64,000 nt of DNA from Candidatus Atabeyarchaeum deiterrae (lineage in GTDB: Archaea > Asgardarchaeota > Atabeyarchaeia > Atabeyarchaeales > Atabeyarchaeaceae), in NCBI GenBank assembly GCA_037310415.1, contig CP147780.1, positions 288,001 through 352,000 on the forward strand. Direction: 5' to 3'. A program made the translations under genes and the position numbers. This document shows positions 49,402 through 50,810 of this stretch, one piece after another (the first letter of the stretch is position 1; each line of letters starts with the position of its first letter). The notes below the pieces were generated by a model. It was not told the DNA's origin. It did not search any database and saw nothing but the letters and a program-made list of their open reading frames with translations.

Positions 49402-50810
49402 TTAGAAGTAGTCGGAGAGGCTTTGTTGAGCGCGGTCTCCCTGTTTCGGTTTTGCCGCGGTTTGATCCTTTGCTCTCAGTGATTCTTTCTTCTCGTTGAG
49501 ACTGTTGCTACTTTCGACTGGAGGTGCCTCATCTTCGAATATTATTGGGTAACCATACGTGCCGTCGTACCCTGGTCTGAAGCGAATCTTTTTCTCCCTG
49601 ACTCTGAGGATCGCATCGGCGAGTCTTGCTCCTGAAATTGAAGATATTTCTTCTCTTGAAGCTTCGAGAAGAACATGTAACTCATTGGGAAACTTCTTGA
49701 GCAGTTTGCCATATTCTTCCCAGACACCTTTTGCAAAGACGTCTTTCATCCCCAAGGCAACGGAGATTATCTCTTGAAGTGGGATCAAACAAACATAAGG
49801 TATGGCACCCTGGAGTATGTAGCCCTCAGGTCTATCGGCTAGTTCCTCGATCCTATGCAGAACGCCAACTGTCAGCTTTTTCCTACAAACAGGGCACATG
49901 TTCCCATACTTAGAAGCTTCTTTCGGACTAAGTACGACGTTACAGTCTCTGTGACCAGTGTAATGATATTTCCCATACTCTGGATTTGTCTCAATTGTCA
50001 TCAAGAACCTTTTGGGGTCCTTCTTGCGGATCACGTCAATTATCTCTTTATATGTTACCCCATCCAGTTGAAACACATTTGCTTCCCTGCCAAGACGGTA
50101 GGGCCATGGACTATGGGAGTCGCTGTTGCTCACCAACGTATATTTGTCCAATGCAGAAAGTCGCCAGTTCATCATGGGGTCAGAGCTTAGACCTGTCTCA
50201 ATCGCATGGACGTTCTTTGTTTGGTCTTGGAAACACTCCTCAATACTGTCAAATCCACTCCTTGAGCCAAACAATGAGAACCATGGAGTCCATGCATGTG
50301 CTGGAATTACCTCGTTCCAGTTATCAATTTCCATTATGACCTCAGTCAGTTCTGCAGCTGCAACTCTTAGCTTTGGCCTTCCGTCTGAGTTGAGGTCACC
50401 GTACTTTGAGATTCTGTCAGCTACTTGGTCGGCCACATCTAGGTTCGGACACAAGATTATGAGGTGGATTCGTTTTGGCTCTCCTTTGGACTGGAACCCA
50501 GCCTCAACTTCGCAGGTCGCCATGAAGCGCACTGACTCTGCAGCATTTGCATTGTTTAGAACATACAGCCCACTGTTATCAACCTCTGACAAAGAAGATT
50601 TGCATTCTGCAAGCCATCTCGGCATTGTGAATTGGAGACTCGTCTACTTCAGAAGGACTTGCAGCACGAGTTATCCCCTGTGCCGAGGAGAGTCAGACCC
50701 TTCATCTTGGCTTGTCTCTCAAGGTTGACTAGATTCATTTGTTCGCTAGTGGCAGCTGAGTACTTGCTGTGGATATGGAGGTCTGCAATAACTTTCAGAC
50801 TAGATTCCAC
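49402..50810 (-). CDS. Endonuclease Q-type PHP-domain nuclease; two exons, 50810-50673 and 50631-49402 (455 aa spliced)
   Basis: ADLHIHSKYS and GTGD in exon 1; FTMPRW, IHLII, PAHAWTPW, ETGLSSD, SNSDSHS, GKYH, CPVC and GYDGTYG in exon 2. Confidence 0.88.
50632..50672 (-). other. Candidate BHB-type mRNA intron (41 nt) in the EndoQ-type gene
   Basis: Minus strand GGGG-ATA-ACTCGT...ACGAGT-CTCC-AAT: a 4-bp helix with one G-U, two 3-nt bulges and a 6-bp stem; canonical cuts give GGG GAT TTC ACA (G-D-F-T). Confidence 0.85.

What the first reader, a model, noticed from the sequence alone, without database searches (positions are those of the whole stretch)
50632..50672. 41-nt BHB intron in the GTGD-F motif of an EndoQ-type DNA repair nuclease
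The minus strand reads ACA-GGGG-ATA-ACTCGT-G-CTGC-(13-nt loop)-GTAG-ACGAGT-CTCC-AAT-TCAC. The central helix is GGGG/CTCC, the bulges are ATA and AAT, and the inner stem is ACTCGT/ACGAGT plus CTGC/GTAG. Canonical cuts (AT^A and AA^T) give GGC ACA GGG GAT TTC ACA ATG CCG AGA TGG = GTGDFTMPRW. This joins a 46-codon upstream exon, missed by the ORF track, that carries the PHP metal motif DLHIHS. Without splicing, translation stops at a TGA inside the intron and the downstream ORF lacks the HxH motif.
Basis: partly seen in the sequence, partly recalled or inferred. Interest (0 to 1): 0.88.

Follow-up and report, generated by a model that had tools for sequence, protein, structure and literature searches.

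The report
tRNA-type intron splitting EndoQ repair gene
A DNA-repair nuclease gene (EndoQ) of an uncultured archaeon is interrupted by a 41-base insert shaped like a tRNA intron, which very probably has to be cut out of the mRNA before the enzyme can be made; published work documents this kind of splicing inside a coding sequence for only one other archaeal gene (cbf5).

Summary
Removing window 50632-50672 (minus strand, 41 nt) joins a 46-codon exon (DLHIHS...GTGD) to FTMPRW... in one 455-codon EndoQ frame.

The main evidence is comparative:
- 16 related loci (14 distinct sequences) carry an insert at exactly this D|F codon boundary.
- The inserts are 31, 41, 42, 51, 53 or 54 nt long, covering all three length classes mod 3.
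- 85 EndoQ genes from other lineages are uninterrupted there (GTGD-F/I/V-T-H-P-x-W).
- The intron-bearing genes form one clade (support 100).
- Both exons are under strong purifying selection (dN/dS 0.07-0.12).
- Most lineages have no start codon near the junction.

The RNA motif is conserved with compensatory changes. It has a 4-bp central helix and a 3-nt bulge at the 5' cut, but the 3' cut lies in a 9-10-nt loop strand. It is therefore a relaxed (bulge-helix-loop) motif, not a strict BHB.

The genome encodes a crenarchaeal-type (alpha-beta)2 splicing endonuclease with the specificity loop lysine, plus RtcB. I confirmed three more split genes in the same genome (pcm, gatE, a radical-SAM gene).

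No RNA data were available, so splicing is inferred, not observed. This scan has noted similar introns in many other archaeal genomes.

The parts
50673..50810 (-). Exon 1 of endoQ: GTG start (50810-50808) and 46 codons. It carries the DLHIHS metal-ligand motif and ends with GTGD.
   Evidence: Matches PfuEndoQ residues 3-42 at E 1.1e-6 and TIGR00375 profile positions 2-39. It is conserved upstream of exon 2 in all relatives. dN/dS is 0.07 among the 14 intron-bearing genes.
50632..50672 (-). The 41-nt intron (AACUCG...GAGUCUCCAA), which contains an in-frame TGA at 50651-50649.
   Evidence: Homologous inserts of 31-54 nt lie at the same codon boundary in 16 loci. The intron was recovered independently by a rule-based scan. 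It has no other copy in the genome.
49402..50631 (-). Exon 2 of endoQ: 409 codons plus stop, starting FTMPRW. It carries the remaining Zn ligands (E, H, H, D) and the zinc-finger region.
   Evidence: PDB 5zb8 at E 1.5e-47 and TIGR00375 at E 6.9e-58. Public gene calls start inside it, at 396-407 aa.
50675..50678 (-). 5' strand of the central 4-bp helix H (GGGG), in exon 1.
   Evidence: Pairs with 50634-50637. All four pairs are kept in 14 of 14 sequences; the third pair is A-U in 9 and G-U in 5.
50672..50674 (-). 3-nt bulge AUA holding the 5' splice site (cut between 50673 and 50672).
   Evidence: RNAalifold and the MFE fold show a 3-nt bulge between H and the inner helix. The cut position is fixed by homology.
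50638..50671 (-). Inner helix h' (ACUCGU-G-CUGC / GUAG-ACGAGU) with its 13-nt apical loop. This is the part that varies in length among relatives.
   Evidence: 97% of cells are paired. Compensatory changes occur at alignment A1 columns 24-66 (UA/UG/CG) and 28-63.
50634..50637 (-). 3' strand of the central helix H (CUCC), in the intron.
50625..50633 (-). 9-nt loop strand AAUUCACAA holding the 3' splice site (cut between 50632 and 50631, 2 nt after H). This is the relaxed, BHL-like side of the motif.
   Evidence: It faces only 2-3 unpaired nt (CA) on the 5' strand.
50618..50624 (-). 3' strand of the outer exon-exon helix (UGCCGAG).
   Evidence: Pairs with 50681-50687. Column pair 8-86 shows C-G in 12, U-A in 1 and U-G in 1, at synonymous sites.
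50681..50687 (-). 5' strand of the outer exon-exon helix (CUCGGCA).

Best explanation
The endoQ gene is transcribed as a pre-mRNA with a 41-nt archaeal endonuclease-type intron between the codons for GTGD and FTMPRW.

The RNA folds so that a 4-bp helix (GGGG/CUCC) is flanked on its 5' strand by a 3-nt bulge and a long inner hairpin. On its 3' strand it is flanked by a loop closed by an exon-exon helix. This is a bulge-helix-loop variant of the BHB motif.

The genome's heterotetrameric (alpha-beta)2 splicing endonuclease cuts 2 nt 3' of each strand of the central helix. RtcB then joins the exons, and probably circularises the intron. Only the spliced mRNA encodes the full 455-aa EndoQ with both halves of its PHP zinc site.

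Shown here: the anatomy, conservation, covariation, selection, single origin and presence of the enzymes.

Inferred: that cleavage and ligation actually occur, at these positions, by these enzymes.
For: 1. Junction. Excision gives GTGD|FTMPRW, colinear with 85 uninterrupted homologs that read GTGD-[FIV..]-x-x-P-x-W and with PfuEndoQ.

2. Conservation. 16 loci (14 distinct) have inserts at the same boundary, of 31, 41, 42, 51, 53 or 54 nt. All residues mod 3 occur, and the in-frame-length inserts carry stops. Excision gives FT[SLM]P[RK]W every time.

3. Structure. 98.4% of cells are paired, against 37-51% when partners are slid. Three pairs show compensatory change. RNAalifold finds the same fold on its own.

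4. Single origin. The intron-bearing genes form one clade with SH-aLRT 100, needing 1 change against a shuffled mean of 13.2.

5. Selection. dN/dS is 0.07 for exon 1 and 0.12 for the first 24 codons of exon 2, against 0.08 for codons 1-350 of exon 2. In 10 of 14 lineages no ATG/GTG/TTG lies within the first 23 codons of exon 2, and the frame is closed 4-5 codons upstream.

6. Enzymes.
- EndA alpha best matches the A. pernix catalytic subunit (E 2e-46) and keeps Y/H/K and the CSL lysine (RKPK aligned to EKPR, K44).
- The second paralog has lost the catalytic His, so it is a beta subunit.
- RtcB is present.
- CSL-bearing (alpha-beta)2 enzymes cleave BHL motifs, including that of cbf5 pre-mRNA (PMC3241643, PMC2738675, PMC12397907).

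7. Context.
- The same genome has further split genes that the same cut rule repairs: pcm (window 33676-33704, restoring GQTISAPHMV), gatE and a radical-SAM gene.
- Its tRNA genes are heavily interrupted: 20 of the 24 found by aragorn have introns.

8. Active site. Exon 1 supplies Zn ligands His8 and His10 of the catalytic site (PMC5961232). All other ligands are intact in exon 2.
Against: - There is no RNA evidence of any kind for the spliced junction or a circular intron.
- The 3' splice site is not in a closed 3-nt bulge.
- The single-sequence fold is not more stable than shuffles (z = -1.5).
- The bare 9-bp motif is very common by chance.
- My genome-wide ORF-fusion screen showed no excess over shifted-cut controls. 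The genome-wide extent of such introns is therefore not established by my own statistics.
Confidence: 0.87

Rival explanations
1. Split gene. The two ORFs are translated separately, as a roughly 50-aa N-terminal peptide and a roughly 400-aa C-terminal protein, and assemble non-covalently into an active EndoQ. The hairpin would be an intercistronic element.
For: In the window genome an ATG lies 2 codons after the junction (FTMPRW), and two relatives have TTG there. Public gene callers annotate a 396-407-aa product.
Against: In 10 of 14 lineages there is no ATG/GTG/TTG within the first 23 codons after the junction, yet this stretch has dN/dS 0.12. The insert ends are conserved in a BHB-like geometry whose rule-based cuts restore the exact uninterrupted sequence. 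Nothing in this model explains that.
Confidence: 0.04
2. Translational recoding. The ribosome bypasses the insert (as in T4 gene 60) or shifts frame across it, with no RNA cleavage.
For: A stop codon follows shortly after the 'take-off' Asp codon, and a stable hairpin follows. This is superficially like gene 60 (established knowledge, not tested here).
Against: The gap lengths (31, 41, 42, 51, 53 and 54 nt) cover all three residues mod 3, so no single frameshift works. The last three intron bases are CAA, CAC or CAU, so there is no GAY landing codon matching the take-off codon. The conserved features are those of the endonuclease motif.
Confidence: 0.03
3. Pseudogene or assembly artefact. The gene is broken by an insertion and is decaying, or the 41 nt are a sequencing error.
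For: A separate EndoQ fragment with a stop exists elsewhere in the genome (G000:C1:1101128-1101289), so decayed copies do occur.
Against: The interruption is present in 16 independently assembled loci from many samples. Both exons are open and under strong purifying selection, with all catalytic residues intact. The insert structure covaries. This is the only full-length EndoQ in a 97%-complete genome.
Confidence: 0.03
4. The insert is removed at the RNA level by a different mechanism: another RNase plus a ligase, or self-cleavage.
For: The 3' site is non-canonical, and no enzyme assay was done.
Against: The 5' site has textbook H-bulge-h' geometry, and both junctions lie exactly 2 nt 3' of the H strands, the symmetric spacing expected of EndA. 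At 31-54 nt with a variable core, the insert is too small for a group I or II ribozyme.
Confidence: 0.03

Closest known systems
cbf5 pre-mRNA intron of Crenarchaeota (Aeropyrum, Sulfolobus, Desulfurococcales; Watanabe 2002; Yoshinari 2006; Yokobori 2009, PMC2738675)
   Same: A short intron inside a protein-coding sequence. It has a relaxed (BHL-type) cleavage motif and occurs in organisms with a hetero-oligomeric (alpha-beta)2 endonuclease. It is clade-restricted, consistent with gain in one lineage, and varies in length between species.
   Different: The host gene is different (the DNA-repair nuclease EndoQ, not a pseudouridine synthase), and the lineage appears different: the nearest named EndoQ homologs are Bathyarchaeia MAGs, but the lineage itself was not determined. 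Here the host genome carries several such CDS introns. Splicing of cbf5 was shown by RT-PCR and in-vitro cleavage; here it is only inferred.
Haloferax volcanii HVO_1309 5'-UTR BHB intron (Schwarz et al. 2020, PMC7714728)
   Same: An mRNA substrate of the archaeal splicing endonuclease outside tRNA and rRNA.
   Different: That intron lies in the 5' UTR and does not interrupt the reading frame. It is cut by a homodimeric enzyme that needs canonical BHB. The EndoQ intron is obligatory for producing the protein.
Non-canonical tRNA introns of Thermoproteota (BHL or HBh' motifs at non-37/38 positions; Marck & Grosjean 2003; Hirata 2011, PMC3241643)
   Same: The same motif class (one proper bulge and one loop side), the same enzyme type with a CSL lysine, and similar sizes.
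   Different: The substrate is an mRNA, and the exon-exon helix is built from codons. Covariation falls at synonymous third positions.
IRE1/RtcB splicing of HAC1/XBP1 mRNA in eukaryotes
   Same: Spliceosome-independent removal of a short frame-changing mRNA intron by an endonuclease acting on stem-loop sites, followed by RtcB-type ligation. The intron determines which protein is made.
   Different: The endonuclease and recognition motif are unrelated. The eukaryotic case is a stress-regulated switch, and no evidence of regulation exists here.

Membership tests
Archaeal splicing-endonuclease (BHB/BHL) intron | A 4-bp central helix between the two cleavage sites | tested here: met
   GGGG/CUCC. 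All four pairs are kept in 14 of 14 sequences, with A-U/G-U variation at one pair.
Archaeal splicing-endonuclease (BHB/BHL) intron | A 3-nt bulge at the 5' splice site, flanked by two helices | tested here: met
   AUA (ACA in relatives) lies between H and a 10-bp inner helix. The cut falls after the second bulge nucleotide.
Archaeal splicing-endonuclease (BHB/BHL) intron | A 3-nt bulge at the 3' splice site closed by an adjacent outer helix (strict hBHBh') | tested here: not met
   The 3' cut lies in a 9-10-nt loop strand, and the outer helix starts 7 nt downstream. The motif is therefore the relaxed BHL class, which is accepted by (alpha-beta)2 enzymes with a CSL (PMC3241643, PMC12397907).
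Archaeal splicing-endonuclease (BHB/BHL) intron | Symmetric cuts 2 nt 3' of each strand of the central helix give the functional product | tested here: met
   In 14 of 14 sequences this rule reproduces the homology-defined junction GTGD|FT.P.W. The rule-based scan also recovers the site.
Archaeal splicing-endonuclease (BHB/BHL) intron | The host encodes a broad-specificity endonuclease and RtcB ligase | tested here: met
   The alpha subunit matches 3p1z_B at E 2e-46, with Y/H/K and CSL K44. The beta paralog lacks the catalytic His. RtcB is present at 582 bits.
Archaeal splicing-endonuclease (BHB/BHL) intron | Excision and exon ligation observed in RNA (junction reads, circular intron) | not testable with these tools
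   No RNA run is listed as holding the stretch, and the four runs laid gave zero coverage.
Endonuclease Q (TIGR00375 / PfuEndoQ) | An N-terminal PHP domain with Zn ligands His8, His10, Glu76, His84, His139 and Asp193 (PMC5961232) | tested here: met
   DLHIHS in exon 1 aligns to residues 6-11. CEVE, RIH, PAHAW and SDSH in exon 2 align to E76, H84, H139 and D193/H195. The site is complete only in the spliced product.
Endonuclease Q (TIGR00375 / PfuEndoQ) | Full-length profile match above the curated cut-off | tested here: inconclusive
   Exon 2 alone scores 196.8 bits against a cut-off of 326.6. The spliced protein could not be submitted as a reference. PDB matches at E 1e-47 and clear orthology in the tree leave little doubt.
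Endonuclease Q (TIGR00375 / PfuEndoQ) | A Cys4 zinc-finger domain | tested here: met
   Aligned positions read H-x3-C...C-x2-C against Pfu C-x3-C...C-x2-C, so one Cys is replaced by His.

The most novel reading that the evidence does not exclude
This archaeal lineage uses EndA/RtcB splicing as a general layer of mRNA maturation. Many protein genes would need it, not one. Shown here are EndoQ, pcm, gatE and a radical-SAM enzyme, and many more were flagged by earlier readers. EndoQ itself acquired such introns independently at two different sites in different families: GTGD|F here, and YG|KYH in families f7 and f18. That would make endonuclease-type introns in archaeal coding sequences a recurrent, evolutionarily dynamic phenomenon rather than the single cbf5 curiosity.
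Probability: 0.45. Interest if true: 0.85.

Novelty: new member of a known kind. Interest (0 to 1): 0.66.

Why it matters
Published work states that cbf5 is the only archaeal protein-coding sequence interrupted by a splicing-endonuclease intron (PMC7714728, PMC2738675).

A second, well-supported host gene shows that tRNA-type splicing of mRNAs is not a one-off. The gene has a clade-wide conserved intron, covariation at synonymous sites, and sister cases in the same genome. This bears on how the substrate range of EndA evolved and on debates about the origin of mRNA introns.

It also has a practical consequence. Gene callers truncate these genes: the public EndoQ calls here are 371-408 aa and lack two catalytic zinc ligands. 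Annotation pipelines for such archaea therefore mis-predict proteins systematically.

Tried and rejected
- RNA evidence: no RNA holder was listed for the stretch. Laying three Nanopore metatranscriptome runs and one further run on 50300-51000 gave zero coverage. No inference was drawn.
- Genome-wide count: an ORF-fusion screen of hairpins obeying the cut rule gave the same counts at the true and shifted cut positions. The 9-bp motif gave about 1,280 loci at every offset, and the strict hBHBh' motif gave 88 against 79-86. The statistic has no power, so no genome-wide number is claimed.
- Earlier leads: glyA, valS, MTAP and the RuBisCO-like gene were not recovered by my strict 9-bp rule, and I did not examine them further.
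- Single-sequence fold significance: z = -1.5, not significant.
- Mobile-element idea: the intron has no other copy in the genome.
- Pfam-A: this copy gave no family for either exon, although precomputed tables list PF27218.
- Lineage: identification failed. Cluster names were withheld, no paper mentions the related assembly, named Bathyarchaeia proteins match none of the 'same phylum' loci closely, and atlas taxa were uninformative.
- Ribosomal bypass, frameshifting, pseudogene and split-gene readings were considered and rejected, as set out under rival explanations.

Full report
**1. The observation**

The window is G000:C1:288001-352000 of a 2.76-Mb single-contig archaeal genome.
- Upstream lies a 46-codon frame from a GTG at 50810: VESSLKVIADLHIHS...LLGTGD.
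- Downstream, in the frame shifted by 2, lies FTMPRWLAEC..., running to a stop at 49402.
- Deleting the 41 nt gives one 1368-nt frame.
- Without deletion, the first frame stops at a TGA inside the insert after 7 extra codons. The second frame is closed 4 codons upstream of the junction.

**2. What the gene is**

- Exon 2 matches Pyrococcus furiosus endonuclease Q (PDB 5zb8) at E 1.5e-47 and NCBIfam TIGR00375 at E 6.9e-58.
- Exon 1 matches PfuEndoQ residues 3-42 at E 1.1e-6, and the alignment ends exactly at GTGD42.
- His8 and His10 of PfuEndoQ, which are the HIH of exon 1, are Zn ligands of the catalytic PHP site together with E76, H84, H139 and D193 (PMC5961232). The latter four are all present in exon 2.
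- Public gene calls for this gene and its close relatives are 371-408 aa, so they are N-terminally truncated.

**3. Comparative test of the junction**

In 27 genomes of other families of the same phylum, and in 58 metagenome loci, the gene runs straight through the site as GTGD-[F/I/V/C/A]-x-x-P-x-W. Only the window's own family (G000, G001, G002) and its metagenomic relatives are interrupted.
- This makes 16 loci and 14 distinct sequences.
- The inserts are 31, 41, 42, 51, 53 or 54 nt long, so all three residues mod 3 occur. The in-frame-length inserts contain stops.
- In every case, removal between the D codon and the F codon gives GTGD|FT[S/L/M]P[R/K]W.
- A single frameshift, a translated insertion and an assembly error are therefore excluded.
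- On a maximum-likelihood tree of 89 EndoQ sequences, the 14 interrupted genes form one clade (SH-aLRT 100). One change is needed, against 13.2 on average in shuffles. This was the quick search; the careful search did not finish.

**4. RNA structure**

I aligned the 14 sequences, each as 20 nt of exon, the insert and 20 nt of exon (A1). The ends are conserved and the core is variable. RNAalifold, without guidance, predicts the following:
- a 7-bp exon-exon helix;
- an internal loop of 3 x 10 nt;
- a 4-bp central helix;
- a 3-nt bulge;
- a 10-bp inner helix.

For that structure, 98.4% of cells are standard pairs, against 37-51% when the 3' partners are slid by 1-3 columns. Three pairs show changes on both sides:
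- columns 24-66: U-A, U-G, C-G;
- columns 28-63;
- columns 8-86: C-G, U-G, U-A, at synonymous third-codon positions of Leu and Pro.

The 5' junction lies after the second nucleotide of the 3-nt bulge. The 3' junction lies 2 nt after the 3' strand of the central helix, which is the symmetric position, but within the long loop strand.

Taken alone, the fold is unremarkable (z = -1.5), and a 9-bp version of the motif is frequent by chance (about 91,500 hits). The weight rests on the comparative data.

**5. Selection**

Among the 14 genes, median dN/dS values are:

| Segment | Median dN/dS |
|---|---|
| Exon 1 | 0.07 |
| First 24 codons of exon 2 | 0.12 |
| Exon 2, codons 1-350 | 0.08 |

In 10 of 14 lineages no ATG, GTG or TTG occurs in the first 23 codons after the junction. 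That conserved stretch cannot be reached by independent initiation. This argues against a two-polypeptide split gene and against a pseudogene.

The intron ends in CAA, CAC or CAU, so there is no matching landing codon. That argues against gene-60-type bypassing.

**6. Enzymes**

The genome has two EndA paralogs.
- One best matches the Aeropyrum pernix catalytic alpha subunit (3p1z_B, E 2.3e-46). It retains the catalytic Tyr/His/Lys and, in the Crenarchaea-specific loop, the lysine aligned with K44: RKPKTFDF against EKPRGADF.
- The other has Thr in place of the catalytic His (KDTS against KEHS), as expected of a structural beta subunit.
- RtcB is present.

(alpha-beta)2 enzymes with a CSL cleave BHL motifs, K44 is essential, and the cbf5 pre-mRNA intron is itself BHL-type (PMC3241643, PMC2738675, PMC12397907).

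**7. Context in the same genome**

- aragorn finds only 24 tRNA genes, and 20 of them have predicted introns.
- Earlier scan notes listed many candidate CDS introns. I tested some with my own cut-rule scan.
- pcm in this same window (33676-33704, +, 29 nt): helix CACC/GGUG, bulges ACA and AAA. Its excision restores GQTISAPHMV.
- gatE (41 nt): exon 1 covers GatB_N profile positions 1-30 and exon 2 covers 45-276.
- A radical-SAM gene (53 nt): excision restores CNLTCPWC, and exon 2 matches Radical_SAM profile positions 20-161.
- My attempt to count such introns genome-wide by ORF fusion failed its own control.

**8. A second EndoQ intron site**

In families f7 and f18 of the same phylum, EndoQ is interrupted elsewhere, between ...(P)EYG and KYH..., by inserts of 24-32 nt.

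In L019 the motif is AUGG / AAA / CUAAUUCG...CGAGUUAG / CCAU / AAA, and the same cut rule restores Y-G-K-Y-H. The window's gene is uninterrupted there. This suggests independent intron gains in one gene family. I followed it up only partly.

**9. Comparison with what is known, and novelty**

Within the searchable literature, cbf5 is stated to be the only archaeal coding sequence with such an intron, besides a 5'-UTR intron in Haloferax (PMC7714728, PMC2738675). No paper links EndoQ to an intron.

The present case works like the cbf5 intron: a BHL motif and a heteromeric EndA. It differs in the following ways:
- it sits in a different gene;
- it appears to be in a different lineage (the nearest named homologs are Bathyarchaeia MAGs at 55-58% identity), although I could not determine the lineage;
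- it is accompanied by other CDS introns in the same genome.

It is therefore a new member of a known kind.

The scan itself has already recorded similar introns in other genes and genomes (dnaG, EF-1alpha, rtcB, pcm, pyrG and others). Those are unpublished AI notes.

**10. Verdict**

The outstanding gap is RNA-level proof. No evidence supports damage-regulated splicing.

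Noticed in passing
window 33676-33704 (+): The pcm (protein-L-isoaspartate O-methyltransferase) gene in the same window is split by a 29-nt insert with a near-textbook motif: H CACC/GGUG, bulges ACA and AAA, inner helix UUACUU/AAGUAA. Excision joins ORFs 33465-33698 and 33707-34195 and restores GQTISAPHMV.
   Followed up: partly
L019:2141-2172, L018 (~2141-2168), L017 and L005 (~2150-2180): EndoQ genes of two other families (f18: G037, G028; f7: G008, G018) are interrupted at a different site (...EYG|KYH...) by hairpin inserts of 24-32 nt. 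In L019 the same cut rule restores the frame. G025:C1:110316-111539 also looks split near there. This suggests independent intron gain in the same gene family.
   Followed up: partly
G000:C1:2222226-2222266 (-) and G000:C1:919007-919059 (-): gatE carries a 41-nt insert (AGGC/GCCU helix, AGA bulges). A radical-SAM gene carries a 53-nt insert (GCCC/GGGC helix) that splits the CxxxCxxC motif. Pfam matches of the exon pairs are consistent with single split genes.
   Followed up: partly
G000:C1:1101128-1101289 (+): A short EndoQ fragment, 87% identical to residues 119-172 of the window's protein and with an internal TGA, lies elsewhere in the genome. It is apparently a decayed partial duplicate.
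   Followed up: no
whole genome G000: aragorn detects only 24 tRNA genes in a 97%-complete genome. 20 of them have predicted introns, some very long (257, 491 and 893 nt), and several lie at non-canonical positions. Many tRNA genes are probably multiply interrupted or otherwise missed.
   Followed up: no
window 48691-49284 (+): Just beyond the 3' end of endoQ, on the opposite strand, lies a 197-aa ORF whose C-terminal two thirds is a proline/glutamine-rich low-complexity repeat (PQGYQPQ...). Its function is unknown.
   Followed up: no
window 50968-52239 (+) and loci L100-L108: A SIS-domain protein gene is divergently adjacent to endoQ, and this neighbourhood is conserved in most intron-bearing relatives.
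   Followed up: no
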